Of a stretch of 64,000 nucleotides of DNA, positions 5,973 to 48,900 are shown piece by piece. Every line of letters starts with the position of its first letter. Within the stretch, counting starts at the first letter, position 1. The position numbers were made by a program, and so were the translations under genes. The stretch covers positions 124,001 to 188,000 of the forward strand of contig OZ237755.1 of the NCBI GenBank assembly GCA_965178125.1, written 5' to 3'. This DNA is from Bilabrum cf. latius (lineage: Eukaryota). Below the pieces are notes generated by a model, which saw nothing but the letters and a program-made list of their open reading frames with translations, did no database searches and had not been told where the DNA came from.

Positions 5973-6177
5973 GTTGCCTTAGTTCGTCTGCGCTCCACAC
6001 TAACTACCACTACAGTAAAGTGTCATCGCGCAATACGGGTCATTAAGCGGCTCGACTTCGTGCTGGTTGTGGTTGAAGTTCGCATGCCGCGCCATCATGG
6101 ATCGGCGATCCCGGTTCCGGTTGGCAGCTAAACCAAAAGCAATCGTACATAGAAGCGCCCGACTCATTTTCAATTGA

Positions 6178-25000: not shown

Positions 25001-28000
25001 CCACTGAAGACGATATGGACGATGCGGATACCACCAACGACGATGCGGACAGCTTCCGGCTGTTTCAGCTTGATCCCTCATCCGCTAGCCTTGTGCTGCG
25101 GGCGGGGCAGCAACTCGACTGGGAACGCAAAGCGTCTTACAGAGTACGTGTGGTGGTCACCGATGGAGGCGGGCTGTACACTGTTGGAACCGTTCAAGTG
25201 TCTGTGTCGGACGTCCCAGATGCCGTCATAACTAGTTTCAGGAATATCAGTCGTACGTAGGATGCAATCACCAGCCAATCCACCGGTGGATCCAGTGTTG
25301 GCCAAAGTGACTCAACTGGCGTTGCTATAGAAGCCTAGTTCGAGTACGGCACGGAAGGTGGTGACTGGGTTGTGCTACAGGGGTCCGGTATCTCACCTGA
25401 CGCAGATAGGGTTAATGAAGAAGGCCTGGATCTGTCGGGGTACACGTTCACAGCCATATACGGCCCATCGTCAGAACCGGACAAGTATGAGGCCACGGAC
25501 TGCTACATGGTGAATGCCGGCCATGAGGTGGCGTGTAAAGTGCAGGAAGGGGCTGGAGGGGGGCACGTTTGGGCCCTGAGGTCCTTCGAAGCATCCTCCG
25601 GGCGCGACCACACCGCGGTGTCAAACCCAAGCAGATCGTACACGTCCTACAAACCGCCTAGGTTAGAGAGTGTGGCTGGGGTGGGCGGCACTGGCAATTT
25701 GCTTTCCACTAGGGGTGCTCCACCCGATAACTCTGTCTCAATCGTGGCAGAGGGACAGAACTTCGGGCCCTCGGGCACGTCCATCCAGTTGCTGTACGGC
25801 GCTGACGGAGACGAGCGCACGCTGATAGCGAGGGACTGCCGTGTCACTAACCCGCACGTGCAGATCACGTGCCATCCGGTGCCTGGTGTAGGCGGACCTT
25901 TGAGCTTCGTGGCCAGCGCTGACGGGCAGGAGTCATCCATTTTCGACAGCGGGCTTTCGTACACTTCGCCCGAGATCAGTGAAGTAATTGTGCTGCTGCA
26001 GCAGGATGTGCAGCAGGCCCAACAGGCTGCCACCTTGGCAAACACGGACCCGACCTTGGCTGTAGAGGCTCTTGCTTTGGGAGTGGATGCATCCGCTACG
26101 AACGCACTCCTCTCTACGCATGGCGTGGACACGGTTTACATCAGTGGAGACTCGTTTGGCCCCGGGCCATCGAATCTACGGGGCTCCACAGTGACTGCCT
26201 GCTACGGCCCTGCCTCCGACCCCGACCGCTACTGCGTATCAGAGTGCAGCAATCTGCCTACCGATCCCCACACTGGCATCCTATGCAAAGCGCAGCCGGG
26301 AGTGGGAGTGCAGCACCAGTGGCGAGTCACGGTGGGAGGGCTGTCTTCCACACCCGCATCCCAGGACGACACGACGTCCTACCGACCCCCTGAAGTCACT
26401 GCTGCGCTGGGCCAGGGGACATCGGATGCCAAGACAGACGGCTGCGAGGTCGTCATCCTAGAGGGAGACCAGTTCGGTCCCAGGATCGCGATAGACGCAT
26501 AGGCGCAGGAGCAGTGCGACCAAGCACTATCGGGCGTACCCCGCGTAACAAACGATTCCAGTCAAGCAGGCTACATGCCAATGCCAAGGCCTCACGTGAC
26601 GTACTGGTCGAGATGGGCGGCAGAAGCAGATCCTACGGGACACTCTGTCTATGAGGCTAGAGATTGCTTCGTGTCGGCGGCCAGCACCCGCATCACCTGC
26701 CGTACCGCACCGGGCATCGGCGACGAGCTCGTTTGGAGAGTAGAGATCGACGGGCAAGAGAATTCTAACGTTGGCTCGTTTGAAACCAACTACCATCCGC
26801 CCGTGATCACCAGCTATGGAGGCCCAGGGTCGTCACTTGCCCGCACCGAGGGCTCGCAGGACGTCATCATCGAGGGCAGGCACTTTGGGCCGATTGGATC
26901 TAGGGTGGCACAAGCAGTGTACACTATGCGAGAGGTAGATGAAGAGTACCTGAGGCAGGTTGAGGCGGGTAGTCCAGTCCATCGAGTTCTACTAGAGAAG
27001 GCAGTTCTCGCATCCAAGGCACGGGGCCATCGCCGCCTCCAAGACGAGGATCTTCCTCCCATTTTCCACGCTACTGATTGTAATGTCACTGTGGCCCACA
27101 CTCAGGTGAACTGCAAGACTGTGGAGGGTGCAGGTGCCAGCCTTCAGTGGTTCCTCCTGATCGGAAACCAAATATCGGAGTCGCCTAGCACCAATTATGC
27201 ACCGCCCAGCGTGGACGGCGTCTCAGGACCCGGCAGTTCGAACGCCTCCACCGAGGGAGAGCAATCTATTGTGCTTCACGGCCGCAACTTTGGTCACTTG
27301 ACAGATTATTTGGACTTTGTGACGTACGGACCCTCCGGTACGGAGTACGCGGCAAAGAATTGCGAGGTGCGCAACCACACTGAAATTGATTGCACTACTA
27401 GCCCGGGCGTCGGACGACGCATGCTGTGGATCGTATCCGTCGAGGGACAGGAATCTGAGGCAGATGGTGGTCCGATCACATCATATGCCGCTCCCGAGAT
27501 CTCGCAAGTCCATCTTCCTCTCTAGGGTACCACCACTGCTGGTGGTGGCACTGTCGGTATCATCGTGAGCAACGCAGGCCAAGCAGCTCGTGCCGCCATC
27601 TCGATCCACGTGAACAGCAAAGGAGCCGCCCGTCCAGATGATATCCACGCCGGATGGAGCGAGATGATGCAGGGTCGTGGTGTGGGTCTCGAAACAGAGA
27701 CGTGGCTGGGACAGCTGGCAGAGGTGCAGATCACGAATGGAGGCGGAGATCTGCAGGCCGACGGCCAGGTGCGATTCGAGTTTGAGCTCCCCGCGGGCCA
27801 CGGCGAGGACAGGGAGGTGATTGTGAAGGTGGTCGCAGCAGATGGATCAGGTATGCCTGTCTACTCGCCGCTGAAGGGGCTTCTGTCGTACGACCCTCCC
27901 ATCATTACCCGCACTTCACCAGACCGCAACGCCACCATGGGCAACGCTTGGCTGCGAGTATTCGTGACTGGTGGGAATTTCTGTGACGGGCGTGACAACT

Positions 28001-31000
28001 GCGGCGAACTTTTGGTAGATGGGGAGACCATCGGTTTCAAAGCGGACCTCGAGGCTATCGGTGACGCTCTGTCGCCTAGGATCATGCGTTGGACGGATGA
28101 GGAAATCGAGTTTGAAATCGTGGAGCCTGCCGAATCGGGCACTCAGGTGCAGGTGAGGGTGGGACAGCGTGTATCAAATGCTGCTACGTTTGACCGTCCT
28201 GTACCATTCTTTGATGCGCTGCAGGATCAGCCAACGTGGCCAGCTCTCGGCCCCGCTGGTGGCGAGGAGTTCTACCTCGCCAAGGTACGGGGACTGGAAG
28301 GCACTGATGCGGGTCGGATCACGCTGACCATCGGCGGTCGGGAGTGCCAGGATCTGGAAGTGATAACGCCCGACCCCGACAGCCCGGATGCCTCGTGCTC
28401 GCTGACCTTTGCGGGGCCCTGTGAGAAACGCCTCAAGTGCACCACCCCTCCGGGTGTCGGCAGTCGGAACGAGGTCATCGTCAACGTGGGCACCGGCGGC
28501 ACGGTAGAGGCGGCCTCCCGCGGCAACTGGATGATCCTCAGCTACAGGGCACCCGTTGTGGAATCAGCCTTCGCCTACCTTCCTCCTCTTGCTGTCAGTC
28601 CAAGCACCACGACCGACCTCGAGTACTACGCTATGCATATCGAGAGAGACGGAGGCGCAAATGCTCTGGATGCCGCGTCTGACTCTGCCGGGATCCCAAC
28701 AACTGGTGGTGTGATGGAACTGCGGGGGTCAGGGTTTGGCACTGAGACGACCGGGGTAGTGCTAGCAAGCATCCCCGCTCTCGGGATCGAGCTGCAGCCT
28801 GTGCCCAACGGGAGGGCGGAGGACGGTATCCTTCGGCTGCAGGTCCCAGCCGGAGTGGGATACGAGCACGCGGTGCAAGTGCAGGTGGGCAGCTCTTTCT
28901 CAGATGTTCAGGATTCCAATGGCTTTGCCATTCGGTATGCCAGGCCTCGAGTGCGCTCCGCACTACCAGGGGCTCTAGGAACGGCTGGTGGTGAGGTGCT
29001 GGTGCTGACGGGCAGAGACTTCGGATCGTTGCAAGGCGACCTCCTCTTTACTAACGTGTCAATTGGGGGCAAGCCTTGCGAAATCGTCGCGGATGGTGCG
29101 GGTAGTACTCCAATGGATCAAAACATTGTATGCCTGACACCCGCCCACAGCGGCCGCAATCAGCTCGTGGAAGTGACCGTGGCTGGTCTATCCAGCGATT
29201 CAAAGGAAAGGGGCGTGGAGCCAGTAGATGTCACCGTGTCGTATCGACCGCCCGTGCTCCATTCTGCCAGCCCTCTCGGGGGTCCTACGTCGGGCCGCAC
29301 CCCCGATGGTGAACCGTACGTGATGACTCTCCACGGCGAGGACTTCGGCAACGGAGAGCAGGGACAGGTGTGGCTCCGGCCATCTCAACTAACTGACGAT
29401 GTGTCAAGCGTGGAGCGCCAGTTGCTGCTCTTGAGGCAAGTCAACGTGTCCTACGACAGCCCACTGGTCCAATCTTGGAACCACACAACTATCGTGATGC
29501 ACATGCCCGAGGGTGCCGGGCAAGATCTCAACGTGGTGGTGCACGTGTCGGGCCAAAGCAGCGCCGTAGCGGACGGACTGCAGTTCACGTATGACCCGCC
29601 CATCGTGTACGGCTGGCGACGCACCGTGGACCGCAGCCCCGAGGAGTGCATGCCCAGGGAGAGGTGCAAGACATTCGAGGGACAGCAGTACTGCAGGACG
29701 ATCGCGGCGGGATGCTATCCCACTGCCGGTGGCTTCTTCATCGAGATCGATGGGGAGTCCTTCGGCAGATCTGGGGCGGATGTCAGGCTGGGGAACTACT
29801 AGTGCTCGCCTGTGAACCGCCTGCTAGACCCGCTCAACGCGCAAACTCACAACCGAATTGTGTGCGAAGTGCCACAGGGCTTCGGAGATGATCTTCCTTT
29901 GGTCGTCACTGTTGGAGGACGTCGAAGCGACGATGCCGAGGCTCTGGCACTTGCCAGAACTCGCCTAGCCCTGATGGTGCAGGCCAGGCTGGATCAAATG
30001 GAAGCCAATGAGGAAGAACTTGAGACGCGCCGGTAGGAGGCCATGATCGGTAGTGGTGGCGCTGGTGGACTCCGCCGTCTGATTTAGGCTGTTGAGGATG
30101 ATCCCAGGCTAGAGAATTCTCAGGTGCCGATCGGTATCAAACCCAGCTCGCAGCTGGCGCTCCGAAAGCTGTCCATCACTCATGGTCACGGCAGATCGAT
30201 GATGTACAACGCTCGTCGACTGGAGGTATTCGGCCTACCTCTAAGCGTGGATGAGGCAATCCAAGCGGCTTATGTGTTCCAGTACGACCCGCCATTCGTT
30301 GATGCGGTCGTTTCCAACACGCCCGATGCCAGGGGTCAAGAGCTGCAGATTCGCGGACAAAACTTCGGTTGGTAGGAGAACGACGTCGAGATCATCGTGG
30401 GTGGGCAGATGTGTCTGGACGCCGCGTGGCAGAACGACGGGCTGCTGCGGTGCACCAAGCAACAAGACGTGGTGGGGCCCAAGAACGTGAGTGTCCTGGC
30501 CGCCAACCGAACGGAGCCATTCGTGTTCGAGGCGTGGGAGGAGCTGCTGGTGAGCGAGTGCCAGAGGGGCGTGTACGAGGGCATCAGGGGGGAGCTGTGC
30601 CTCCACTGCGAGGACGAGCACCCAGGTGCCAACTGCACTGACTCGCACATCCAGACCCACGACCCCATTACCTCGCTACCAGGCTGGTGGCGCTTCAACC
30701 GCAGTCTGGACGACCCCGAGTGCCACCCCTTGCGCACCACCCCTGTGCGTGCCGTCAATGCGACGCTTGGCACAGGCGGATGTCCCGTGTACAAGCCCTG
30801 CGAGCCGGTCGAAGCATGCGTGGGCCAGAACCTGTGCGCCTATGGATACGAAGGAGACCGCTGCTCGTAGTGCCTCTAGGGCGAGTTCCATAGGGTCAAC
30901 GGGAGGTGTGTCAAGTGCCCCGACAGGCCATGGCTGCAGTACGTGCTCATTGGAGTGGGTGCCATGTGCGCCGCGGCCTTTGGGTATCTGCTTCGGTCCA

Positions 31001-33126
31001 AGGGCATCATCGATGTGAGCATCCTGGCCATCGTGGGGATCGACTATCTGCAGGTGCTGGCCATCTTTGCATCCACGAGGGTGGAGTGGCCCAGGATGCT
31101 GGAGGACGTGCTGGCTGTTCTTTCGGCTTTCAATCTCAACATCAACGTTCTGTTCGTGCCCGAGTGCATCGTACCTGGTATTGGGTTCCAGGTCAAGTTT
31201 CTCGCCACCTTGGCGATGCCCGTGCTAGTCGGTGTGATCTTGCTGTTGGTAGTACTTGTCCGTTACGTGTACAAGCTGCTGTTGACCAACTACAAGGCCA
31301 TGCCATCAGACTATCTATGCTCTGATGCCAACGCGACCATCAGCGCCTTCATCGTGCTGGCCCGGTTCGCCTACCTCTTCGTGACCATGATGGCACTCAC
31401 GCCGGCCGCCTGCCTGCAGACCACGCCCCCGGATGGCAGGACGTATATGGACGGCATGGTAGACCACCCGTGCTGGGAGGCTGGTAGCCTGCAGGTGAAG
31501 CTGTTCCCTGTCGGTATCGTTGCATTCGGGATCTTCAGTGTGGGCCTCCCCCTGTGGGTGTTCTACTTCTTGCAGCGCAATGCTGATCAGGTCAAGGAGG
31601 ACCAGGTGCTGCGTGCCGCAGGGGTAGGCAACGATAGGTCGACCAATAATGATCTGGCATTCCGCGAGCGATACTACCAGCTCTACTTCATGATGAAGCC
31701 GGGAAAGATCACGTGGCAGCTGGTCATCACCGCCCGCAAGTTCTTCATCGCCTTCGTGTCTCTGGTGGTGCGCACTTCGCCGTCGTACCAGCTGGCACTG
31801 GTGCTGCTCGTGCTGTTCGCCTCGTACGTGCTGCACCTCAACCACATGCCGTACATGACTCGAGCCAACAAGCCAGAGGTGGTGAAAGAGCACCTAACGA
31901 TGGTACGCGGTGGAAACCGGGCGCACTTGCGCATCCAGCACAAGATTGACCAGATCGCTGAGCGTCAGGAGAAGAACAACACTGCCAAGAGGACTTCAGG
32001 CACGGGCTACAAGGTAGCTCGAGAGCAGCAGCAGCGCGATGCAGACGCCAACGAGTTCCTGGCCAGCAACCAGGTGCTGGCCACCATCGTGGACTACAAC
32101 ACCGTGGAGGCGGTGCTGCTGGGGTGCGGCGTGCTCGTGTGCCTGAGCGGGCTGATCTTCGCCTCGGAGAGGTTCTCGTCCGCGCAGCTGAGGAAGGTGT
32201 ACAGGGCCGAGTACGATGCATTGGCATTCGCAGTTATTGCCATTATCTTCCTATCGTTGTCCTACTTTATGACCTGCGTGGTGCTGGACCTCATGATCTC
32301 ACTGGCTCCCGACGCTACCCGACAGTGCCTCGGCGTCTGCATCTCGGACAAGCGGAAGGCCATCGCAAAGGCCAAGGCCTCCAAGATACGGGCTGCCGAC
32401 GGAGCGGATCCAGAAGAGGGCATGACGGACGCCGAGAAGCTGTTGGCCACAAACAGCTCCAAAAAAGAGCGTCGCAGCATGGCCAATCCGCTCCTCATGC
32501 AAGGAGGGCCCAGAGAGGGCGAGAGCAAGGCCGAGGCTGCCGCTAGGGCCGCCCGCTCCCTTGGCCAGGGTGCCATCCAGGACCTGCTGCAGGCCACGCA
32601 GCCTCCTTCCTAGGACGGTTGGCCTGCCGTGCGCGCGTACATGCAGAGCCTGATCGTGGCCAACGACGAGATGAACAAGGAGAACGAGGAGCGCAACCGT
32701 GAGGACGTGCGGCGAGCTGTGATGGGCGCTCCGGTCGGGTCGTCCAGGGCTTCTATTGGTGGACTGGAGGCCGCACGAGCCGTCTCGGGGGCCTTGCCAG
32801 GACGGCGGACCGCAAATCAAGCGACCAAGAAGACCTTCGGGGCGCTGCGGGCCGACGGAATGACGCTGTCACCCATGGCTAGACCCGGAGCGGCAAGTGC
32901 GACCGACAAGCCCATTGGGCGCAGGGCTTCGAGATTGTAGTCGCGGGGAAGCCGAAGAACTCTCAAGGCGTTTGACTCGCAGAAAAAGGTCGGCGCAGTG
33001 CCGAAGGCGGTGGCAACTGAAGAACAAAGCGCGGCCCCTGTGGTCGCAACTGGAGAGGAGCACAACGCGGCCACCCCAGAAGGGCCAGTGGGTGCTGCTC
33101 GTGTGAAGGACGACTCGACGGACTGA
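19008..33126 (+). CDS. giant (>4,600 aa) cell-surface protein: lectin-like, sushi-like, cadherin, IPT/TIG and Cys-rich modules, then a multi-pass TM region; exons 19008-20301 and 20412-33126, 5' exon(s) unresolved
   Basis: Exon 20412-33126 is one frame with 19 TAGs and no TAA/TGA until 33124. Cadherin motifs (DRNDAPVF, ATDPDGD, LDFE, NVNEAP), repeated IPT-like GxNFG..C..PPGVG..YxPP units, and hydrophobic helices at 30943-32300. Intron 20302-20411 (GTGAG..GCAG) restores the frame. Confidence 0.85.
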
Positions 33127-34502: not shown

Positions 34503-34616
34503 GGTAAACTATGGGTAGTGGGATCCGGCGGTGACGAGCCATGGATTGATCCGCATTTAGATGCAGCGCACTGTCGCGACTGCAGCCGGCTGTTCGTGCG
34601 ATTTCACGACCAATTT

Positions 34617-36701
34617 ATGTCGCAATGCGGGATGAGTTGCGGCATCATACTGGTAGTTATCATAACCAGTATTATTGTTCGAGTATTCCTGTCCCGGTAT
34701 CCGCATTCTGGTTATTAGTCTCCCCCAATGCACGGGGATTTTGAAGCATAGCGGCATTGGATAGAAATTACTTCGCACACATCAATAGGGCAGTGGTATG
34801 AGAACACGACTGCCAATAATTTATTGTATTGGGGGCTAGACTATCCTCCCTTGACGTGAGGTAGGGCATCATTCGTGGCCCATTGACATTTTCGAAGCAA
34901 CGTGTTGATCCATTCCACACACCTCGCCGCGGCCTTTTCTGATCGCAGAGCGTACCATTCTTGGACAATGGGCCAATTTGCCAAGGTATTGAGTCCTGAA
35001 TCGTTTGCTCTGGAGAAGTCTCGCGGATCAGAAGACCAAGATACAAGAATTTTCATGCGATTATCTGTGATCCTGTCCGACGTGCTGGTGCTGTGCCCGG
35101 CCATCCTGCTCGCAGTCAGCTTGAGTACCGCACGCCAGCAAGGTACGGCTTCAATCATAAGAGTGTTGCAGTTATCTCTGCCGGTGCTCCTGTGCCCGGG
35201 TTTGCTGCTCATCGACCACGGCCACTTCCAATACAATGGGGTGTCCCTGGGCCTCGCGCTCGGTGGTGCCGTCTTGTGCGCCCATTGGGGCGACTTGGCG
35301 TACATGCAGCAGAGAGCCGACCAGCGTACAGGTCTTTTCAGTTGTGGCGGCCTCTCTGCCGTGTGGGCCGGCTGCGCCCTCTTCGCAGCAGCGCTGTGCT
35401 ACAAGCAGATGGAGCTGTATCACGCTCCCGCCTTCTTCTTCTTCCTCATCGGGGCGGCATTGGACGCTGTCGCTTCGACCCGCCACGCGCTGACTCGCTC
35501 TAGGGCCGCGTGCAGTGCGCGGTTCTGGTTGCTGATCGCGGTGTTCGGCTCTGCTGTGCTGTCAGTCATGGGGGCGTCATTCGCTCCTTTCTGTCTCTGG
35601 GCAGACAAACAGCACTGGCAGTCGGGCACAGCGATGGATCAAGATGGCACAGCACCGCACGATGGCGGCCTTGACCCGTCAAAGGTGACCGTTGCGCGGG
35701 GGTCGGACACAGGGGAGTGCTGGGGCGGCGTGCAGCAGGTCCTGTACCGCGTGTTTCCCTTCCAGCGAGGGCTGTTCGAGGACAAAGTGGCCAACCTTTG
35801 GTGCGTGGCGGAGCCATTCATACGGCTGCGGGGGTCTGTGAAGGCGGGAGAGGTGTCTCTGCAGAGTATCCTCGGTGCAGCAACGCTCCTGACGCTCCTG
35901 CTGCTCGTGCCAGTTGGCGTCTATGGCTTGCGATGCAGCATCTTTCTAGGAGCAAGCACGGGCTATGGAACGAAAGGGTCTGTAGAGCCTGTGTCGGCAG
36001 GCAAGCAAAGCGTAGCGGCGGCTGGCAGATACACTGGTGGCACAAATGAAGCGACTGACAAGTCAAGCACCAGCACCATCACAAACACCAGCTCCAGCTC
36101 CCTGCGACGGATGCTGCTACTCATGGAAATCAGCGCGCTGGCTTTTTTCCTAGCCTCGTTTCAGGTGCACGAGAAATCAATCCTCATCGCGATGGCACCT
36201 GCAAGCGGCCTGTGCGCGGGCTGGGGTCGAGCAGGAGGGGGCCAGGGAGGAGGGACGGGCAAACACAAACACTGGTCGCATTCGTGGCTTGTGTGGGTGG
36301 GCACGTGTACCATGGTACCCTTGCTGCTGCGAGATGGGCTAGGGTGGCCAACATTGGTGCTGCTATTGGCGTGGTTCGTGGTTTACGGCTGGGAGTGGGT
36401 GCGAGGCTGGGGCAGGGGCTGCTCAGGCGTGTGCAGTGGCACGCTTGCAGGGCTGCTAGGGGGGCTGGTCGCTTGTGGTGCCGCTTTGGGGAGCTCTGGG
36501 CTACTACTGGCGATCGGCGCGCATGTGGCAGTGGCCCCACCAGAGGCCATGCCCGACCTCTTCGTTCTTGGGATTGCGGCGGCCGGATGCGGCTGTCTGA
36601 TCGTGGCGTACGTTGCAGCAGTTCTCGAGCTGAGCGACACGCACGCGACCACGAAGGGCTCATAGCTTGAGACTGAAGCCGTTGCAAAGAAACTCGATTA
36701 A
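34617..36701 (+). CDS. ALG6: ALG6 dolichyl-P-glucose alpha-1,3-glucosyltransferase; exons 34617-34855, 34949-36701 (TAG=Gln)
   Basis: Motifs [69 protein letters not shown] and FQVHEKSIL. Intron 34856-34948. TAGs at 34716, 34749, 36663. Ends ...KKLD then TAA. Confidence 0.93.
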
Positions 36702-36978
36702 CTTAACCTGCCGAGCGCTCGCGCATTGTCCGCTGGCGAGACCAATCCGGATGAGGTCTGTGAAATTGAGCGCGAAGAAGGGCGCGGTCGAAGAGGCCAG
36801 TCCAGTGAGGTACGAACAGGAGCGGCAGCTAGTTGTAGGCGGGGGGGGGGGGTGAGATCGCAGTAGAATGGAGTGACAGGAATGAGCGTCAAATTACCTT
36901 GTTCCATGCAAAAATGCAAGAGTATAAACCGTTTCGCGTGCTGAACCAGATCAGGGTGGAGCCCGCAACCCTGTACCG

Positions 36979-39900
36979 TTAGTACAAGTCCAAAGACGCC
37001 GTGTTGAACAGTGGGCTCTGACCAATGCTCTCTCGAGCCGCTTTGCCCTCCGCTTCACTCTCCTCACGCCCGCTGCCGCTCCGCGCAGAACGCGCCGCGG
37101 CCGGCACCGGGACAGCAGAGCTGGTTGCGGCGCCATCCCCCGAGACCTTGCTCTGCTGGCCACCGAGCCCTTCCCGTCCCACCCCTGCGTCGCTCGACCC
37201 CGAGGACTCGCCGCTGTCCGCCCGCCCTCGAGCAGCTTCCGATACAGCCGCCAGCGACGCGTCTCCCACTAAACTCGGAGACCCAGACTCTTCTCGCGCC
37301 AGCCGTGCCGAACCTCCCGAAGCAGCTGGGGAGCCGGGCCCATCGCTCCCCTCCCTCGCCCTCCGCTGCGAAGCGTCCGCAACGGCCACCACCGGCGAGA
37401 GCCCATCAAGTGCGGGCGACAAGGCCCCGGAGCTCCTGCGCCTCGCCGCCGAAGGATGACCCTTGCCCGCAGATGATGACGACCCACGCGCAGCAGAGGG
37501 TCTCCGGCGCTGCGTTCCAGTGGCTACCCCGGCGCTGCTGCCACCGCCCGCCGATCCCGATCCCTATCCTGCCCCTCCTGCTCCCGGCGTGGTTCCTATG
37601 CCTGCGGTGGCGTCGCTTCGACTCCCCGTGCTCTTGTAGCTGGCCCTGGATGCAGCTGACGCGGCCCTGTGCTGCCTCCTCTCCGCCCGCATCTTGGCGG
37701 CCTCCTGCGTCGCCCTCTCGATCTCCCGCGCGGCCCTCAGCCCGTCAAGCCTGCTCCTGCTGAAGAACTCGCCCCCCGCGCAGAACCCCACCATCCGGGC
37801 CATGCGCGCCTGCACCCGCTGCTCCTCGCCCACGGCCGACCCTCCCGCCCCACCCCCTTCCATTGCCTCCAGCTGCTCGTCCATGTCAACAGCCTCTTTC
37901 TGCCTCTCCTGAGGGGACATGTACCGCGCCCCCAGCGCCTGGCTAGCCGCCCTCATCTTAAGCTCACCCTCTGACGCGGCCCGTGCCCTCTCAGCCGCCT
38001 CCAAAGCCAGGTCCAGAGCTGCTTCCAGCTCGAGTCGGGTGGGACTAGGCCACGATCGTACGGCTATACGGCTCTCTGCCCGCTGCCGCGCGGGAGGCAG
38101 CAGCGCCGCCTCGACTTCCGCTGCCTGCTGCCCGCCCGGTGTGTCCAGGAGCACGGACAGCACTGCATCGCCGGGCAGAGAGGTCCGGGCCATGCGCAGC
38201 GCTGCCGCCACCACGGGCTTGAAGTCGGGCAGCACCAGAGCAGGCCCCAGCTGCCCGTGCTGGCCCGCGTGGTGCAAGAGTCCGGCCAGCGCAAGCGTCT
38301 CGGCCCGCAGGCCAGCGACCCGCACGGCTGCCAGTAGGCGCCCGCCCAGGAAGGCGCATCCCGCCCGACTCAGGTGCACCTGCCTGCGGCTAGGCGCGGG
38401 GTCCCGCAAGGATGCGATGGCCTGCAGCAGCTTGCGGACGATCTTCGCGTGGCTCCCGAACACGGCCACGTGAGCCGCGCACGACAGGTCAAAGGCAGTC
38501 TCTCCCAGCAGGTCCCGCATGGCCGAAGGGTCCTGCCCAGCGCCGTCATCTGCCTGCAGCACGCCGCGGGCATGTGCCACTGCCGCCCGGACCCTCTCCA
38601 CACAGCAACGCGCCGCTGCCCTAGGCTGCCCTGCGGCCCAAGCTAGCCTCCCCGCGAGCCCCAGGACCACGGCTGCCGCTGCTGGATTGCTTCTGCCCAC
38701 ATGACCCGCCTGCTTGCACAGCACGGCCATGGCCGCATCCAGCGCCTTGCTATTGTCGGCTGCTGGTCCCGCCGCCTGCTGCCGGCTCTCATCGCCCCGC
38801 ACCAGCCCCTGGGCTGTGGCTGGCATCCACCCGGGTCCCAGCGGGGGCAGCGCCATCGAAGTGGCTGGGTCCAGCACGCGCTCCAGGGCAGCCGCGGCCC
38901 AGGGGCCCGCACGCCGTGTGCTGTGGCTCGTGTCCAGCCGCACGGGTGCATCCACTCCGACCCCACCTACACCTCGTCGTGACCGCCCGTTCCCAGAGCC
39001 TGGGGCGGATCCAGCCCCGCCGTCAGTCATGGTTTCTGGGGCAGCGCCAGACTCCCCCCCGGCCTCCTCTGCGCTCAGGCAAGCGGGTCCGGATCGCACC
39101 CACTGCAGAGGATCGAAGCAGGCACTGCTGTGGCCAAACACGCCGTCTCGCTCCTCTAGCTCCCTCAGCATCGCCTGCGAATCTCTCCGGTCCTGCGCCT
39201 CCCGCTCCGCTCGCAGCCGGGCCTCTGCATCTTCTTGCGACTCCTTCCGCTCACCAGACGCATCCGCTCTGTTTCCATCCTCGTCCTCGTGGTCGTGCCA
39301 CTCGAGGCCACCGGCCTGCGCTGCCATCCGTCGTCTCTTCTCGCGAACCTTTCTCTCGGCCTCTGCGCGCCTCGCCATGTCCTTCACTCGCTGCCGGTTG
39401 ATCCGCTCTAACTTCTTGAGGCTGGACTCTAGCCGCCCATCCAGCCTCCGCCGGAAGTGGAACCGATCGTCAAACCCATCCCGCGCCTCCTCAGGGTCGC
39501 TGTCCTCGTCGTCAGAGTCCTCTTCCGACTCCGAGTCGGTGCAGCCCCCTTCCGCTACCACGCTGTTGCTACCACTCCCGGCGGACCGGCCGTGCCGCCG
39601 CCCTTTGCGGGAAGACCCTCGACTGGACCTTGAATGGGTCCTCGCCCGAGCTCCCGACGAGCTGCCACCACCGCTTCCCGCACCCGATGCGGCCGCCAGC
39701 CCGCCTGCAGGGGCGTCCCCTGATATTCCTATGAAGGTCCAGATCCTCTCACGGCGGGTCCACGTGAATCGCTTGTGCCCCGCTGCCACGAGGTGGGGCA
39801 TACGCGAAGCCAGACCGGCCCACTCCCCCTCCGCCGAGTGCATCGCATGGTGATGTCCCCCGGAGCCCCCGCCGCTGTCCACCCCATGCAGCACATGCAG

Positions 39901-42900
39901 CACCCCGGCCAGCCCAGAGGCAGTCATGGGGCCCAGCACCTGACCCATCCCGTCCGGGTGACCGCCCCGTTCTGCCGCCGCTCCGCCCTCCTCGTCCAAC
40001 CGGTGGCGCTCCTTCGACCCCTTCTTCACCGAAGATGCGCTGCCAGAAGTGCTACCGTGTGCATTCGCCACATCGACCGCGGCTCGGATGCACAGGGCAG
40101 CAGATGCCCACAGACCGACCATGCCGCCCTCGCCTTCCATCTGACGCCTGGCCTTCTTTCCAGGCACCAGCAGGCCGGGCACGAGCGCACCGAGTCCCTC
40201 CGATAGCATGCCGCAGTCGGTCCCGCACTCAAGCAACAGGTCCCTCGTGGCCTCAAGCACGGAGGAGCCGGCCCCGCCGCAGGCGATGCACGCGGCCAGC
40301 CGGCCCAGCCCGCCTCCGATCCTTGCCACCACTGACCCAGCCATGGTCTCCCCGGTCCCCATCCCCCGATCCGAGCCCCTCTCGCCCACGCTCCTCGCTG
40401 CTACCACCAGGAGACACTGCAGTAGCGGGTGCACTCGGCGCTTCCACGCCTCCCGCAAGACAAGTCGCGCCAGTTGCGCGCGGAACCGAAGCAGCTCCCC
40501 ATCGCTGGCGCGGCGCAGTGCCTCCACGGTGCTTGAGGCACCTGGCATCTGCGCCTCGGCAGCACCAGGGCTCCACCGCACCCGGGCAAAGTCCACCATC
40601 GCCCGGTCTATGCCTCGCAAAACCTGCCCGCACACCTGCATCAGCACGAAGAATGCTCCTTCGCCGGACAGGCCCCCCAGCTCGCGCTCAAGCCCGCCTT
40701 GGACCGCACCGAGGACTGCATCGACAGAGGCGCGAGCGCTTCGAATTGCTTGTGCGTGCTGCCCTTGCGCGCGCTTGAGTGCGGCAGCCGCGCGGCGTAC
40801 AGCGGCCGTCGCCCCGCCCGCTCTGGTCCTCTGGCTCTGCCCGCCCCAGCCCCGCGCCTGTCCGCTGCCAGGCTCGCCTCCATGCATCTCACCCAGCACC
40901 CTCTGTACCGAGTCGGCCACGCCGGCCTTGAGCTCTTTCACTAGCGGCTGGCAGCTGCTTAGCACCGACGCTGCGCGGGGCGCGTGCCACCCGCAGCCAT
41001 GCGCACAGCTCGCCAAGTAGCCGAGCGTGCCGCATGCAGCACCGACTTCGTCTGCTAGTACGGAGGGGTGCTGCAGCTAGCTGGATGCGGCTAGGCATGC
41101 GTGCACTGTGCCCAGGGACTCCTTGAGTAGCCGGTCGAAATCAACCGCAACCGCCCAGCGGGCGCACACTTTGGCGATGGGCTGCTACAGCTGCTCGGGG
41201 TCCAGTGCCCCCGAGCCTGGAGCGGGACCTTGCCCCCAGTCGGAGTCGGATCCAGAAGAGGCCGCAAGCATGCCGCTGAGCAGCACCGTCACGAGCTATG
41301 ACACACCAGATACACTTGCAGACCTCTCCTAGCCCGCAGCGTCTTGGGCTAACCGTTCTTTGTCGGCTCGCTGGCGTCGCAGGGCGACCTACATGCTGAC
41401 GGCCGGGCTCTCCCCCGCCCCGCCGCCCTCGACCAGCAGCGTCTTGCGCCCTGCAAGCCGGGGATTGAACGACATCGCCCAATCCAGACCCGCCCCGCGC
41501 CACACAGGACCATCAGCGGGAGAAGGCGCGCTTTCTGCGGCATCGCACCCACCTTGCTCGCCAGAGCCAGTGCCATCTCGCGTTCCGGCGGCAATCGTCC
41601 ACCACAGAGCCCCACACCCCATTCGGGCTGCTTGCCGTGCGAACGCCGCTGCAGACGCAAACTGCGCCTCATTCGGCCACATCGGCTGCTAGCTCACAGG
41701 CGCACGCGGCAAAACAGTCGCCCCTTTCGGCCACTGCAGCATTGGTGGGATGCCCAGTGCCCTCCTTGCTGCCTGGCGAGCCTGCCGTACCCGCTCTTTC
41801 TGCGCCCGCACGAGGCCATCACCATCCTGCACTCCCCCGGCGGCACCCGTCCCAACTGTGATGCCCTGCACGAACGAACTACCCAGTCCCTGCAGCGCGG
41901 ACGAAAAGCGTCGCACGCCTACCACTGCGCTTGAGGTAATCTCTGAAATGTTTCGAGTCGGGGATGGCGCGTCTGTGGGTGGTGATGCCGCGCCTGCAAG
42001 CACTGCCGAATCTTCTCGGGGCCTAGTGCTGCTGCCATTTGCAGACGTGGACACTCCACCAGCAGCTGCCGACGCAGGCTGGAACCCGACTTTGCCCTCT
42101 TCAGTAGTCGCATCAGGGCGCAGGCTGTTAGCCGCAAGCATGCCTGTCCCGTCGCCTTGCCGAGATGAGGTTAGCTCTCGCAACTGCCTAGCTGTGCCCT
42201 GTAGAATGCCCTGTCTCTGTTGCTCCAGCCAGCCACTTACGCCACTGGCGCGTTGCTGTGATCGCGACCCCTCGTCCCCTTGATCTACTGCTTGAAGAGC
42301 ATCGCCCGCAACAGGGCCGTCCATTTGCAAAAGTAGCGCTGCCTCGCAGTCTGCAGGCGGCAGCTCCAGCTGGGTGCCAACAGCTGCAGCTGTGAGCGCC
42401 TTGGCGGCTCTATGGCTATCGCTGGACTGCTGCCCCCGGCGCTCATCCGCACTTGGCTGGCCAGTCACGAGCGCATTCGTCTGCATTGACAGCCGGCGGA
42501 ATCCGGTCTAGAACATATTGCCAATCTATGCAAAACCTGCTGCGGGTCCAGACGACGCAGAATCTGGCGCCCTTCTTGGCTCATCTCGTGGCAGCGGCTG
42601 AGACTTCGTGCCCGTGGGGTGGTCGGCGCGCTCAGGTGCCAGGCTGGAATGTGCAGCGGGAAGCGCGGCACTGGCCTCTGCTTGCTAATGGGCCCGCTGA
42701 ATGATGTCCTCAAGTTGCAAGGACGCAGAAGTAGCTGCAGCCGTATCCCTGGCACTAGCTTCGTCCAGATCCTCCTCAATCGTGAAAGAAAAATCACCAC
42801 CTGCCGCCAAATCTTGCAGCCTGACCACCACTGGCGTGGTGGCTGGTTGAGCTGACTTAGGAGTACCTGGCCCGGATCCTCTCCGTGCCAGAGTGGGCGA

Positions 42901-45900
42901 CGGCCCGGCCTCTTCTACTGCCGCCGGGACGGAGATCCCGCTGGGTGCCTTCGGGACCTTGGGCGCCCGAGTGGCAGCATCAGCTGCAGCTGGGTTGCCC
43001 ATGCCGTCGCCAGCAGGGGCAGGGACAGGGGCAGCTACAAAAGGGCTACCATGGCCCTTGCCCTCCTCACCCTCATCCTCTACCCCATCCACTAGATCCA
43101 TGGCACTCTTGCGACGATAGCTACTGCGCTTTCGAGACCTGCTTACCCTCTCACGGCGAAGCTTAGCTTGCTCGGCCTTCAGACGGGCCTGCTCCCGCGC
43201 CTCCTGCTCGGCCTTCACACGGGCCTGCTCCCGCGCCTCCTGCTCGGCCTTCACACGGGCCTGTTCCCGCGCCTCCTGCTCGGCCTTCACACGGGCCTGC
43301 TCCCGCGCCTCCTGCTCGGCCTTCACACGGGCCTGCTCCCGCGCCTCCTGCTCGGCCTTCACACGGGCCTGCTCCCGCGCCTCCTGCTCGGCCTTCACAC
43401 GGGCCTGCTCCCGCGCCTCCTGCTCGGCCTTCACACGGGCCTGCTCCCGCGCCTCCTGCTCGGCCTTCAGACGGGCCTGCTCCCGCGCCTCCTGCTCGGC
43501 CTTCACACGGGCCTGCTCCCGCGCCTCCTGCTCGGCCTTCACACGGGCCTGCTCCCGCGCCTCCTGCTCGGCCTTCAGACGGGCCTGCTCCCGCGCCTCC
43601 TGCTCGGCCTTCAGGCAGGCCTGCTCCCGCGCCTCCTAAATACGCCGAACAGATTCGCGCGCGAGCTTTCCTCTAACCACTCGCTGCAATTCGATCGCAC
43701 CACGTGTTTGAGCTTCAAGTCGCCTCTCGGCAGCTTCTGCTTGCTGCTACCGAAGGGCCAAATGCAGACTCTGGCGATCCTCTCGGGTCCGCCAGAGAGC
43801 CTGGAGCGACACCGCCAGTCGCGATAAACGCTCAAACAGCGCGCGCGCCTCTTCATCGTCTTCGTCGTCTGAATCTGAATCTGAGTCTGAGTCTGAGTCT
43901 GAATCACTGTCGCTGTTGGTGTCGGTGTCAGTGTCCTTGTCGGTGTCGGTGTCACTACCGCTGCTTCTTCCATCGTCCGAACCAGACCCTGAACCAGATG
44001 TTGACCTATCCGTTGCATCATCGTCAGAGCTATGATCCACACCGTCATCATTCGTCGATCCTATAGGTTCTGCCAATGCCTCAGGAGGCTTAGCAGGCTA
44101 ATCTACTTCAGCACTAGCACTTTTCACTGTTGCTATGCTGCCTCCATCCTCTCCTGTACCCTGCTCATCCTCATCAGACGAATCATGAGAGGACTCCTCT
44201 GAACTATCGCTATCCGAATCATCATCGAAAGATTCTTCATCTGAGGAGCTGGGCACCTCCACAATGTCAGTCGACGCTGAACCAACAACTGCAGTCCCGT
44301 GCACATTTTCACCAGCTCCGCACTAGTTTTCAGCGAATTGTTCACGCTTCGCCTTGGCCGCTGCCTCCGCCGCCGCACGCTCACGCTCAGATGCACACCG
44401 ACGCCGAGCCAGCATGCCGCGACTCACACGCTGCACTGCCACCGCCGCGTCACGCTCACGCTTCGCCTTGGCCGCTGCCTCCGCCGCCGCACGCTCACGC
44501 TCAGATGCACACCGACGCCGAGCCAGCATGCCGCGACTCACACGCTGCACTGCCACCGCCGCGTCACGCTCACGCTTCGACTTGGCCGCTGCCTCCGCCG
44601 CCGCACGCTCACGCTCAGATGCACACCGACGCCGAGCCAGCATGCCGCGACTCACACGCTGCACTGCCACCGCCGCGTCACGCTCACGCTTCGCCTTGGC
44701 CGCTGCCTCCGCCGCCGCACGCTCACGCTCAGATGCACACCGACGCCGAGCCAGCATGCCGCGACTCACACGCTGCACTGCCACCGCCGCGTCACGCTCA
44801 CGCTTCGCCTTGGCCGCTGCCTCCGCCGCCGCACGCTCACGCTCAGATGCACACCGACGCCGAGCCAGCATGCCGCGACTCACACGCTGCACTGCCACCG
44901 CCGCGTCACGCTCACGCTTCGCCTTGGCCGCTGCCTCCGCCGCCGCACGCTCACGCTCAGATGCACACCGACGCCGAGCCAGCATGCCGCGACTCACACG
45001 CTGCACTGCCACCGCCGCGTCACGCTCACGCTTCGCCTTGGCCGCTGCCTCCGCCGCCGCACGCTCACGCTCAGATGCACACCGACGCCGAGCCAGCATG
45101 CCGCGACTCACACGCTGCACTGCCACCGCCGCGTCACGCTCACGCTTCGCCTTGGCCGCTGCCTCCGCCGCCGCACGCTCACGCTCAGATGCACACCGAC
45201 GCCGAGCCAGCATGCCGCGACTCACACGCTGCACTGCCACCGCCGCGTCACGCTCACGCTTCGCCTTGGCCGCTGCCTCCGCCGCCGCACGCTCACGCTC
45301 AGATGCACACCGACGCCGAGCCAGCATGCCGCGACTCACACGCTGCACTGCCACCGCCGCGTCACGCTCACGCTTCGCCTTGGCCGCTGCCTCCGCCGCC
45401 GCACGCTCACGCTCAGATGCACACCGACGCCGAGCCAGCATGCCGCGACTCACACGCTGCACTGCCACCGCCGCGTCACGCTCACGCTTCGCCTTGGCCG
45501 CTGCCTCCGCCGCCGCACGCTCGCGCTCAGATGCACACCGACGCCGAGCCAGCATGCCGCGACTCACACGCTGCACTGCCACCGCCGCGTCACGCTCACG
45601 CTTCGCCTTGGCCGCTGCCTCCGCCGCCGCACGCTCACGCTCAGATGCACACCGACGCCGAGCCAGCATGCCGCGACTCACACGCTGCACTGCCACCGCC
45701 GCGTCACGCTCACGCTTCGACTTGGCCGCTGCCTCCGCCGCCGCACGCTCGCGCTCAGATGCACACCGACGCCGAGCCAGCATGCCGCGACTCACACGCT
45801 GCACTGCCACCGCCGCGTCACGCTCACGCTTCGCCTTGGCCGCTGCCTCCGCCGCCGCACGCTCACGCTCAGATGCACACCGACGCCGAGCCAGCATGCC

Positions 45901-48900
45901 GCGACTCACACGCTGCACTGCCACCGCCGCGTCACGCTCACGCTTCGCCTTGGCCGCTGCCTCCGCCGCCGCACGCTCGCGCTCAGATGCACACCGACGC
46001 CGAGCCAGCATGCCGCGACTCACACGCTGCACTGCCACCGCCGCGTCACGCTCACGCTTCGCCTTGGCCGCTGCCTCCGCCGCCGCACGCTCACGCTCAG
46101 ATGCACACCGACGCCGAGCCAGCATGCCGCGACTCACACGCTGCACTGCCACCGCCGCGTCACGCTCACGCTTCGCCTTGGCCGCTGCCTCCGCCGCCGC
46201 ACGCTCGCGCTCAGATGCACACCGACGCCGAGCCAGCATGCCGCGACTCACACGCTGCACTGCCACCGCCGCGTCACGCTCACGCTTCGCCTTGGCCGCT
46301 GCCTCCGCCGCCGCACGCTCACGCTCAGATGCACACCGACGCCGAGCCAGCATGCCGCGACTCACACGCTGCACTGCCACCGCCGCGTCACGCTCACGCT
46401 TCGCCTTGGCCGCTGCCTCCGCCGCCGCACGCTCACGCTCAGATGCACACCGACGCCGAGCCAGCATGCCGCGACTCACACGCTGCACTGCCACCGCCGC
46501 GTCACGCTCACGCTTCGCCTTGGCCGCTGCCTCCGCCGCCGCACGCTCACGCTCAGATGCACACCGACGCCGAGCCAGCATGCCGCGACTCACACGCTGC
46601 ACTGCCACCGCCGCGTCACGCTCACGCTTCGCCTTGGCCGCTGCCTCCGCCGCCGCACGCTCACGCTCAGATGCACACCGACGCCGAGCCAGCATGCCGC
46701 GACTCACACGCTGCACTGCCACCGCCGCGTCACGCTCACGCTTCGCCTTGGCCGCTGCCTCCGCCGCCGCACGCTCACGCTCAGATGCACACCGACGCCG
46801 AGCCAGCATGCCGCGACTCACACGCTGCACTGCCACCGCCGCGTCACGCTCACGCTTCGCCTTGGCCGCTGCCTCCGCCGCCGCACGCTCGCGCTCAGAT
46901 GCACACCGACGCCGAGCCAGCATGCCGCGACTCACACGCTGCACTGCCACCGCCGCGTCACGCTCACGCTTCGCCTTGGCCGCTGCCTCCGCCGCCGCAC
47001 GCTCGCGCTCAGATGCACACCGACGCCGAGCCAGCATGCCGCGACTCACACGCTGCACTGCCACCGCCGCGTCACGCTCACGCTTCGCCTTGGCCGCTGC
47101 CTCCGCCGCCGCACGCTCGCGCTCAGATGCACACCGACGCCGAGCCAGCATGCCGCGACTCACACGCTGCACTGCCACCGCCGCGTCACGCTCACGCTTC
47201 GCCTTGGCCGCTGCCTCCGCCGCCGCACGCTCACGCTCAGATGCACACCGACGCCGAGCCAGCATGCCGCGACTCACACGCTGCACTGCCACCGCCGCGT
47301 CACGCTCACGCTTCGCCTTGGCCGCTGCCTCCGCCGCCGCACGCTCGCGCTCAGATGCACACCGACGCCGAGCCAGCATGCCGCGACTCACACGCTGCAC
47401 TGCCACCGCCGCGTCACGCTCACGCTTCGCCTTGGCCGCTGCCTCCGCCGCCGCACGCTCACGCTCAGATGCACACCGACGCCGAGCCAGCATGCCGCGA
47501 CTCACACGCTGCACTGCCACCGCCGCGTCACGCTCACGCTTCGCCTTGGCCGCTGCCTCCGCCGCCGCACGCTCACGCTCAGATGCACACCGACGCCGAG
47601 CCAGCATGCCGCGACTCATACGCTGCACTGCCACCGCCGCGTCACGCTCACGCTTCGCCTTGGCCGCTGCCTCCGCCGCCGCACGCTCACGCTCAGATGC
47701 ACACCGACGCCGAGCCAGCATGCCGCGACTCACGCGCTGCACTGCCACCGCCGCGTCACGCTCACGCTTCGCCTTGGCCGCTGCCTCCGCCGCCGCACGC
47801 TCACGCTCAGATGCACACCGACGTCTGGCTTGTCGACCTCTCCACCTTGCCTGCGTCCAGTGTGCTACCTTTACGAGTTGCTAGTATATTATGGCTTCCT
47901 CGTCGTCGCTCTCATCAGTGTCACTGTCTGAATCAGATGCGGAATCACTGTCAGTATCAGTGGTGCTTTTGCTGGTGTCAGCATCCGAAATACTCCCAGC
48001 TGACTCCCTGTGAGCGCCTTCACTTGCCTCGCCAGACTGTTCTGGGGTTATGATGGCCTCCTTTCTCTCGATGCCTTCTTCATGTAACCCATCGGCACTG
48101 GCCTCCTTGCCAGAGCCGTCCGCCTCCTTGTCAGAGCTGTCTGCCTACTTGCCAGAAGCACCTGCCTCCTTATCATCTCTCAAAGGTAGCTAGTTGGCTC
48201 CTGCTGTCTCCGTCGCTGCAAGCCCGCTCTTTCTCGACGACATTGCCCTGCTCAGGAGACGAGGGGTGGCCCACGATGGGAAGTATGACGGAAGAAGCAG
48301 GCCTCCTTCGGCTAGTGCGAGGCATCGGTGGTGAACCTGCTGCCACGGGAGTTGCGCAACGCGAGACACGCGCGGGGGCGCCCTGGGCTCGCCGTGAAGC
48401 ACGAATGCGACACCACCACCAAGAGCACCAGCCGCCTCTTGCACGGCTTGCGATCCATGGTGCGCTCCTGCCTGCACGCAGAATGCCAACGCCGGAGAGG
48501 GTGTAAGTGCCACGTCACGAATGACCCCTAGATCGGCATGCCACTGCAGCACGCCCGCTGCCTCCACACGTGAGGGCCTGGGGTCCAGCAGGTGAATGGC
48601 CGTGCTACTGTGAGCAAATAAGAGACTCTCGCACGCCGAGGAAGCGTCGTCCATGATCCCGCCGCCAGCAGGCACCTCGTCTGGGTCACCGAATTCCTCT
48701 GATGAGACGGTATCACCATCCGAAGAGGACGAATCCGACCCGCTGCCACTGTCGCTGCCACTGTCTGAATCGCTGTCCGAGTCGCTGCTGCCGTCCTCAA
48801 CCCCGGTCCAAGCCCGGGAGTCCACGTCCCGCAGAGGCTTGGCGAGCGTGATGCATTCCACCAAGCCGAGCTCGTGCTTGACCTCCTCGGCCCCCGAGGC

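What the first reader, a model, noticed from the sequence alone, without database searches (positions are those of the whole stretch)
34716..34770. TAG at the highly conserved Gln of the ALG6 GD(Y/F)EAQRHW motif
The sequence reads GGG GAT TTT GAA GCA TAG CGG CAT TGG, with TAG at 34749-34751. This column is Gln in ALG6 orthologues. It is the best single site for identifying the residue as Gln rather than Leu, Glu, Tyr, Trp or pyrrolysine.
Basis: partly seen in the sequence, partly recalled or inferred. Interest (0 to 1): 0.8.

Follow-up and report, generated by a model that had tools for sequence, protein, structure and literature searches.

The report
Flagellate reads TAG stop as glutamine
This single-celled flagellate, a relative of Cafeteria, uses the normal stop signal TAG to put glutamine into its proteins across the genome while TAA and TGA still stop, a rare code for which we found no earlier report in its branch of eukaryotes (stramenopiles).

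Summary
The TAG at 34749-34751 is real and sits in the only ALG6 match in the genome, at a column that is Gln in 157 of 158 homologues. Spliced contigs from two studies keep the TAG, so it is neither a dead copy nor edited away. It is one case of a genome-wide code change. Across 18 dynein heavy-chain frames, 258 TAG codons behave like CAG/CAA (log-likelihood Gln 91, next Glu -56). Of 154 sampled long ORFs, 130 contain TAG, and they end in TGA (121) or TAA (33). A relative has TAG opposite our CAG in eRF1. The genome has one tRNA with a CUA anticodon, and eRF1 has a diverged stop-recognition domain and two internal TAGs. eRF1 trees place the organism with Cafeteria among bicosoecids. The same code is known from Iotanema, three ciliates and some phages; eight literature searches found no nuclear case in stramenopiles. 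Unexpectedly, the CUA tRNA's acceptor and anticodon stems match tRNA-Tyr, not tRNA-Gln, though Tyr is not the residue implied. No proteomics: the residue, the tRNA's charge and the eRF1 role are inferred.

The parts
34632..34855 (+). ALG6 exon 1 (Alg6_Alg8 family glucosyltransferase)
   Evidence: covered by spliced contigs
34716..34718 (+). in-frame TAG, ALG6 codon 29, variable column
   Evidence: unchanged in spliced contigs X1 and X2
34749..34751 (+). in-frame TAG, ALG6 codon 40, at the near-invariant Gln
   Evidence: Gln in 157 of 158 homologues; unchanged in spliced contigs
34856..34948 (+). 93-base GT-AG intron
   Evidence: skipped exactly by one contig each in runs X1 and X2
34949..36701 (+). 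ALG6 exon 2, ending in TAA
36663..36665 (+). in-frame TAG 12 codons before the stop; reading through gives a C-terminal KKLD dilysine end
   Evidence: 31 of 58 full-length homologues end in KKxx or KxKxx; unchanged in contigs of X1, X2, X3
36699..36701 (+). TAA, true stop of ALG6
20329..33126 (+). supporting gene: 4265-codon frame (cadherin and IPT/TIG repeats) with 20 TAG, ends TGA; poly(A) loose end at 33164
36979..50355 (-). supporting gene: 4458-codon frame with 20 TAG, ends TAA
15032..17464 (-). supporting gene: kinesin frame with a TAG inside the motor domain
2016..5978 (-). supporting gene: frame with 14 TAG, one inside a weak VRR-NUC match (23.3 bits, cut-off 23.8)

Best explanation
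The nuclear genetic code of this bicosoecid stramenopile reads UAG as glutamine everywhere; UGA and UAA remain stops. Shown from sequence: TAG is in frame in most genes, survives in spliced RNA, falls at Gln columns, and does not mark gene ends. Inferred: the single tRNA with a CUA anticodon decodes UAG (CUA cannot read UAA) and is charged by the ordinary GlnRS; eRF1, whose N-domain is diverged (S60V in TASNIKS, G29A/N30D beside GTS, position 69 itself a UAG), has lost most UAG recognition. Since eRF1 carries two UAGs in its own N-domain, the change locks itself in (inference).
For: ALG6 column Gln 157 of 158; single copy; spliced contigs with 0 other letters over both exon-1 TAGs in two studies. 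Dynein AAA_6: 12 of 28 matches have stops inside, all TAG. 19 dynein frames: 11 run all 3333 codons without TAA/TGA, 7 stop at the natural C-terminus (6 TGA, 1 TAA), 1 breaks at codon 2404. In 18 of them 258 TAG; at 198 alignable sites log-likelihood Q 91.3, E -55.6, K -80.2; at columns conserved >=70% Gln tops 19 of 30 TAG sites, against 203 of 283 for CAG and 23 of 33 for CAA; TAG profile correlates best with CAG 0.965 and CAA 0.892. 25 Pfam-covered sites, summed bits relative to Q: E -8.2, K -11.7, Y -29.0, L -34.1, W -43.0. eRF1 codon 48 TAG opposite Gln in 90 of 95. Metagenome relative L078 (92% protein, 82% DNA identity) has TAG opposite our CAG and ends in TGA. 154 ORFs in 605 kb: 810 TAG, 130 ORFs with TAG, ends 121 TGA and 33 TAA; TAG rate 6.0 per 1000 in the last 40 codons and in the body. 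One CUA tRNA, 69.8 bits, no UUA tRNA in a pattern search. eRF1 N-domain 21 of 92 conserved columns changed against 16 of 158 elsewhere, p=0.009; Cafeteria 10 of 94 against 17 of 160.
Against: No peptide data. Three of 25 Pfam sites disfavour Gln by 4 bits or more (GluRS: W/Y; TPR: Y; GDA1: L), and Gln was best or tied at only 10 of 25; no CAG control was run for this test. The GluRS TAG lies opposite W or Y in 5 of 5 solved-structure alignments. The second eRF1 TAG lies opposite Leu in 90 and Gln in 6 of 96. A mixture fit leaves room for a Glu share (best 11.5%, upper 29.5%). The CUA tRNA is not a close copy of either tRNA-Gln (63-65% identity). The core eRF1 motifs GTS, NIKS, YxCxxxF, E55 and S70 are intact, so loss of UAG recognition is not shown. 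TAG is slightly commoner in the last 10 codons (14 of 1540, about 9 expected) and one ORF ends TAG-TGA. ORFs were called assuming TAG is sense and ignoring introns.
Confidence: 0.92

Rival explanations
1. UAG is mainly Gln but ambiguous: the Tyr-like CUA tRNA is partly charged with Tyr, or Glu enters in part.
For: The tRNA keeps C1-G72, a eukaryotic TyrRS determinant; GluRS and TPR sites favour aromatic residues; Glu share not excluded.
Against: The tRNA has G73 and C34, not the A73 and G34 listed for TyrRS. 0 of 198 dynein TAG sites lie at Tyr-majority columns, against 339 of 1115 TAC/TAT sites; fitted Tyr share 0, upper 3.3%; Trp upper 2.9%. CAG/CAA sites also lean to Glu columns (43 Glu against 269 Gln). 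These tests see selection on sites, not low-level misreading.
Confidence: 0.04
2. UAG has two meanings: Gln inside genes, stop near the 3' end, as in context-dependent ciliate codes.
For: 14 TAG in the last 10 codons of 154 ORFs against about 9 expected; one TAG directly before TGA.
Against: No depletion near ends (37 of 6160 in the last 40 codons, equal to the body rate); the ALG6 TAG 12 codons before TAA is needed for the dilysine end; all 7 dynein ends seen and eRF1 use TGA or TAA.
Confidence: 0.03
3. The ALG6 locus is a pseudogene, an assembly error, or is corrected by RNA editing.
For: Contigs drop rare variants, so a minority of edited molecules is not excluded; the runs are RNA by guess only.
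Against: Single copy; intron-skipping contigs keep TAG in two studies and a non-spliced contig of run X4 matches the window with 0 differences over 32637-37000; hundreds of TAGs in essential genes.
Confidence: 0.005
4. UAG encodes pyrrolysine (ARAGORN labels the tRNA Pyl) or another single residue such as Leu, Glu, Tyr, Trp.
For: The ARAGORN label, which follows from the anticodon; a few sites favour L, Y or W.
Against: No PylS match in the genome while the control rang over cut-off in 1 of 14 genomes; Gln beats every other residue by over 70 log units in the column-class test and over 140 in the profile test.
Confidence: 0.005

Closest known systems
Iotanema spirale (fornicate) nuclear code, UAG=Gln with UAA and UGA stops (PMC5304391; section 9 and passages read)
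   Same: Same codon table; CUA tRNA and eRF1 change expected as the mechanism.
   Different: Unrelated lineage. Its tRNA was only predicted, as a mutated copy of tRNA-Gln(CUG); here a CUA tRNA gene is in hand and is not such a copy. Iotanema eRF1 has T32G in GTS; here GTS is intact. UAA is the dominant stop there; here TGA ends 121 of 154 ORFs.
Phyllopharyngean ciliates Hartmannula sinica and Trochilia petrani, and Protocruzia tuzeti, UAG=Gln (PMC11687900; abstract, introduction, discussion and passages read)
   Same: UAG alone reassigned to Gln; similar share of genes with UAG (78-91% there, 130 of 154 ORFs here).
   Different: Ciliates, 27-54% GC, UAA ends 87-98% of genes; no suppressor tRNA was detected in H. 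sinica or T. petrani. Here a stramenopile with about 54-72% GC across the window and TGA as main stop.
Rhizarian exLh and Tara ciliate MAGs, UAG=Leu (PMC5304391, PMC11687900)
   Same: UAG uncoupled from UAA; exLh eRF1 is altered at position 69, which is a UAG codon here.
   Different: Residue is Leu there; their suppressors resemble tRNA-Leu, the cognate family.
UAR=Gln codes (Tetrahymena, ulvophytes, diplomonads, oxymonads; listed in PMC11687900 discussion)
   Same: UAG read as Gln.
   Different: UAA is also Gln there; here TAA is a stop and no UUA tRNA was found.
Phage genetic code 15, TAG=Gln (PMC9523058; search listing and start of abstract only)
   Same: Same table.
   Different: Bacterial translation system; shown by proteomics there, not here.
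Cafeteria roenbergensis (PMC6972860; passages read)
   Same: Best named eRF1 hit (69%) and tree neighbour; mitochondrial UGA=Trp in both.
   Different: The paper names a non-standard code only for the mitochondrion; its genome is 34-36 Mb and about 70% GC against 48.6 Mb here. Its nuclear codons were not tested here.

Membership tests
Nuclear code UAG=Gln, UAA/UGA stop (Iotanema type) | Widespread in-frame UAG in intact, expressed genes | tested here: met
   130 of 154 ORFs; 19 of 19 dynein frames; spliced contigs
Nuclear code UAG=Gln, UAA/UGA stop (Iotanema type) | UAG at conserved Gln columns | tested here: met
   three counter-sites
Nuclear code UAG=Gln, UAA/UGA stop (Iotanema type) | UAA and UGA end genes and are absent inside them | tested here: met
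   selenocysteine UGA not examined
Nuclear code UAG=Gln, UAA/UGA stop (Iotanema type) | tRNA with CUA anticodon present, none with UUA | tested here: met
   searches incomplete (63 of 780 candidates scored; intron-containing genes would be missed)
Nuclear code UAG=Gln, UAA/UGA stop (Iotanema type) | CUA tRNA derived from tRNA-Gln(CUG), as predicted in PMC5304391 | tested here: not met
   acceptor stem 6 of 14 and 2 of 14 identical to the two tRNA-Gln types, 12 of 14 to tRNA-Tyr. This is a predicted mechanism, not part of the code's definition.
Nuclear code UAG=Gln, UAA/UGA stop (Iotanema type) | eRF1 no longer recognises UAG | tested here: inconclusive
   N-domain diverged, core motifs intact; needs an assay
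Nuclear code UAG=Gln, UAA/UGA stop (Iotanema type) | Gln found at UAG positions in protein | not testable with these tools
   needs mass spectrometry
UAR=Gln code (Tetrahymena type) | UAA also read as Gln | tested here: not met
   no internal TAA in 18 dynein frames of 3224 codons or more; TAA ends ALG6, eRF1 and 33 of 154 ORFs
Context-dependent stop/sense codes | Dual codon depleted before gene ends and used as terminator | tested here: not met
   no depletion; power modest, ORF-based
Pyrrolysine system | PylRS gene | tested here: not met
   TIGR02367 no match
ALG6/ALG8 family (PF03155) | Pfam match over cut-off | tested here: met
   66.4 bits against cut-off 25 for exon 1; best solved structure is ALG6
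Bicosoecida (Stramenopiles) | Phylogenetic placement | tested here: met
   eRF1 only: with Cafeteria 98/91 (LG+G4, 47 rows) and 98/96 (C20, 29 rows); with both named bicosoecids 99/94 and 100/99. One gene, long branch; cox1 gave no named close hit.

The most novel reading that the evidence does not exclude
This is the first nuclear genetic-code change in stramenopiles, and it arose by an undescribed route: a copy of tRNA-Tyr became an amber reader (G34 to C) and was then switched to glutamine identity (A73 to G, G2-C71, A37, Gln/Glu-type D arm), instead of a tRNA-Gln changing its anticodon. A resident virophage has adopted the same code.
Probability: 0.4. Interest if true: 0.85.

Novelty: new member of a known kind. 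Interest (0 to 1): 0.72.

Why it matters
Codes that uncouple UAG from UAA are rare, and for the UAG=Gln ones the papers read here had no tRNA gene in hand. This genome supplies the code, a candidate tRNA, GlnRS and eRF1 together, in a GC-rich lineage where TGA, not TAA, is the main stop. That makes two open questions testable: which eRF1 changes drop UAG alone, and how a synthetase comes to charge a CUA tRNA. The tRNA's Tyr-like stems challenge the expected origin from tRNA-Gln. In practice, standard-code annotation truncates most genes of this lineage (median long ORF 394 against 738 codons).

Tried and rejected
First all-frame BLAST of dynein loci was swamped by off-frame alignments and was discarded; redone in the true frame. 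TAA-only, TGA-only and TAA+TAG readings gave no gain over TAG-only. cox1 search gave no named relative closer than 78%; cluster look-up of 10 relatives gave no taxon names. The metagenome scan gave one close relative among 80 loci, a 1299-base contig without the eRF1 N-domain. No run was on record as RNA; splicing was read from the contigs. The 40 listed variants of 70 in paralogous copies of the large gene held no CAG/TAG exchange, one TAG-to-AAG difference within a cluster. A pattern search for more tRNAs (105 matches, 100 listed, 20 fetched) added Arg, Asp and Trp genes and no second CUA gene; nuclear His and Leu genes were not found, so the set is incomplete. No viral-collection relative of the virophage capsid was returned. 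Earlier-findings look-ups were empty. The genome sample stayed at 400 kb of contiguous DNA plus short loci.

Full report
Observation. The gene starts at ATG 34632, has one 93-base GT-AG intron (34856-34948) and ends at TAA 36699-36701; it encodes 658 residues with TAG at codons 29, 40 and 647. Of 158 homologues from two searches, 157 have Gln and 1 His opposite codon 40, and the six neighbours D36, E38, A39, R41, H42, W43 are invariant. The solved ALG6 chain 6snh_X also has Gln. Codon 29 is at a variable column and is uninformative. The three other well-conserved Gln columns use CAA or CAG.

Not a pseudogene, error or editing site. The genome (48.6 Mb, 111 contigs) has one match to exon 1. No run is on record as RNA, but one contig in run X1 and one in run X2, from two studies, skip the intron exactly and match 34626-36256 and 34619-36223 with 0 other letters; X1 also shows a poly(A) end 38 bases after the TGA of the upstream large gene. 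Contigs hide rare variants, so only majority editing is excluded. Reading through the third TAG gives a C-terminal KKLD; 31 of 58 full-length homologues end in KKxx or KxKxx. That this is an ER-retrieval signal is recalled knowledge.

Genome-wide. In the window, freeing TAG alone yields frames of 4265 and 4458 codons with 20 TAG each. Of 28 matches to the dynein AAA_6 family, 12 contain stops, all TAG. Ten kilobases of each of 19 dynein genes were read in frame: 11 have no TAA/TGA in 3333 codons, 7 meet the first one at the C-terminus (6 TGA, 1 TAA), and 1 breaks at codon 2404 and continues in another frame; all 19 contain TAG. The 18 long frames hold 258 TAG, 382 CAA and 2167 CAG. In 605 kb of other DNA, 154 ORFs called with TAG as sense hold 810 TAG in 134,095 codons (13% of Gln-type codons); 130 contain TAG; 121 end in TGA and 33 in TAA. 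These ORFs ignore introns. Under the standard code 49 of 73 long ORFs would end in TAG.

Which residue. At 198 dynein TAG sites with at least 10 aligned paralogues, summed log-likelihood is 91.3 for Gln, -55.6 for Glu, -80.2 for Lys; the same method returns the right residue for 8 of 8 control codons. At columns conserved at 70% or more, Gln tops 19 of 30 TAG sites, 203 of 283 CAG sites and 23 of 33 CAA sites. A mixture fit gives a Tyr share of 0 (upper 3.3%), Trp 0.5% (2.9%), Leu 0.7% (6%), Glu 11.5% (29.5%). As an outside test, 150 of 409 single-TAG segments were scanned against Pfam; 32 matched, 29 over the TAG, and the 4 weakest were dropped. Over 25 sites, summed bits relative to Gln are E -8.2, K -11.7, Y -29.0, L -34.1, W -43.0. 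Gln is best or tied at 10, wins by 2 bits or more at 3, and loses by 4 or more at 3 (GluRS, TPR, GDA1). The GluRS site lies opposite W or Y in 5 of 5 structure alignments. No CAG control was run for the Pfam test. A metagenomic relative (L078, 92% protein identity in eRF1) has TAG where this genome has CAG, and ends in TGA: the code is shared by at least one other species, on one site's evidence.

Is UAG ever a stop? TAG runs at 6.0 per 1000 codons in ORF bodies and 6.0 in the last 40 codons (37 of 6160). The last 10 codons hold 14 against about 9 expected, and one ORF ends TAG-TGA. There is no depletion of the kind described for context-dependent codes; a few terminal UAGs cannot be excluded.

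The tRNA. Among 48 Rfam tRNA matches (63 of 780 candidates scored) one has a CUA anticodon, at G000:C23:907607-907679, 69.8 bits, single copy. A pattern search for CUA or UUA anticodon arms gave 14 matches; of the 12 nuclear ones only this is a tRNA. No PylRS was found. Whole-length identity is uninformative: Tyr 68.5%, Glu 68.1%, Gln 63-65%. By arm, it matches tRNA-Tyr(GUA) at 12 of 14 acceptor and 8 of 10 anticodon-stem positions; the next best acceptor match is 6 of 14. None of 414 non-isoacceptor pairs reaches 20 of 24 for these two stems. I chose the stems after seeing the data; for all four stems 8 of 414 pairs score as high, and for acceptor plus any other stem 3 of 414. It and tRNA-Tyr are the only ones with C1-G72. 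Its D stem matches tRNA-Gln(UUG) at 8 of 8, and it has G73, G2-C71 and A37. Table 1 of PMC9976931 (sections 6 and 17 read) lists A73, C1-G72, G34, U35 for eukaryotic Tyr identity, G73, G2-C71, U35, A37 among bacterial Gln determinants, and no data for eukaryotic Gln; the same review reports amber tRNAs of other families accepting Gln. The reading that a tRNA-Tyr copy was switched to Gln is therefore inference, about even odds; an old, diverged tRNA-Gln with convergent stems is the alternative. The tRNA set is incomplete. An intact GlnRS frame is present.

eRF1. The single eRF1 (C35; the other family matches look like pelota by recall) has four exons, 438 residues, ends in TAA and has TAG at codons 48 and 73, human positions 44 and 69. 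Position 44 is Gln in 90 of 95 homologues; position 69 is Leu in 90 and Gln in 6 of 96. GTS, NIKS, YxCxxxF, E55 and S70 are intact; TASNIKS reads TAVNIKS and the two residues before GTS are changed. In the N-domain 21 of 92 conserved columns differ against 16 of 158 elsewhere (p=0.009); the median of 95 rows is 2 and 5; three rows differ more, two of them with apparently mispredicted starts. PMC5304391 links position 69 and T32 to UAG recognition. Which change matters here is untested.

Lineage. The best named eRF1 hit is Cafeteria roenbergensis (69%). Trees place the protein with Cafeteria (98/91 under LG+G4 with 47 chosen rows; 98/96 under C20 with 29) inside a set with Bicosoecida sp. CB-2014 (99/94; 100/99); Cafeteria is Stramenopiles, Bigyra, Bicosoecida. 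This is one gene on a long branch. The 38.4-kb mitochondrial contig uses TGA in frame and has a UCA tRNA, as reported for Cafileria and Cafeteria (PMC6723347, PMC6972860; passages).

Comparison and novelty. The code works like, and meets the sequence tests for, the UAG=Gln code of Iotanema spirale and of Hartmannula, Trochilia and Protocruzia. The list of known cases in the 2024 discussion names no stramenopile. Eight full-text searches (seven on the code, one on tRNA mischarging) showed no nuclear case in stramenopiles in their listings; passages of PMC11412368, PMC12152300, PMC13192750, PMC10553269, PMC10120064 and PMC6492006 gave none either. Subscription journals are mostly missing, so priority is not established. 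What differs here: the lineage, high GC with TGA as main stop, a tRNA gene in hand, and its Tyr-like body.

Verdict. Real; UAG=Gln genome-wide with TAA/TGA stops, 0.92. New member of a known kind, interest 0.72. The bolder case, first in stramenopiles and through a Tyr-derived tRNA, 0.4.

Noticed in passing
G000:C2:700001-724000 (L240-L242): A 24-kb island of 36-44% GC with a virophage major capsid protein (MCP_V20_C, 9 TAG), an rve integrase (10 TAG), a primase-helicase-like gene (12 TAG), a DNA methylase and a Tet/JBP gene: an endogenous virophage whose genes carry in-frame TAG and end in TAA/TGA, like the host's. PMC10120064 reports the same host-code adoption for Streblomastix elements. 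No relative returned from IMG/VR.
   Followed up: partly
L035 (G000:C95:6099-7900): A second, 1802-base 18S rRNA gene only 78% identical to the 1700-base tandem copies on C12; it looks dinoflagellate by recall, so probably a contaminant or co-cultured organism in the assembly.
   Followed up: no
L159:1252-1254: TAG in cytosolic GluRS at a position that is W or Y in solved GluRS/GlnRS structures; a good peptide for testing ambiguity.
   Followed up: partly
window 44118-48053: Long near-perfect tandem repeat of an IQ-like 38-residue unit inside the 4458-codon minus-strand frame, open in several frames; may be an assembly-sensitive array.
   Followed up: no
window 20329-33126: The cadherin/IPT-TIG giant gene has diverged paralogues and much higher contig depth than its neighbours in runs X1 and X3.
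   Followed up: no
L058-L076: TAG share of Gln-type codons varies from 0.6% to 25% between dynein genes and rises as GC3 falls, as expected of a synonymous codon under mutation bias.
   Followed up: partly
L023, L039, L043, L051-L053: Several tRNA-Met(CAU)-labelled genes are near copies of tRNA-Pro(UGG) in acceptor and D stems (12-13 of 14 acceptor positions): possibly a second case of tRNA gene recruitment, or a tRNA-derived repeat.
   Followed up: no
window 33595-34520 (minus strand): DeoC aldolase gene head-to-head with ALG6, with a 107-base intron confirmed by contigs and no in-frame TAG.
   Followed up: partly
L054-L057 (G000:C111): 38.4-kb, 24% GC mitochondrial contig with UGA in frame and a UCA tRNA; all 22 plus-strand ORFs listed end in TAA.
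   Followed up: partly
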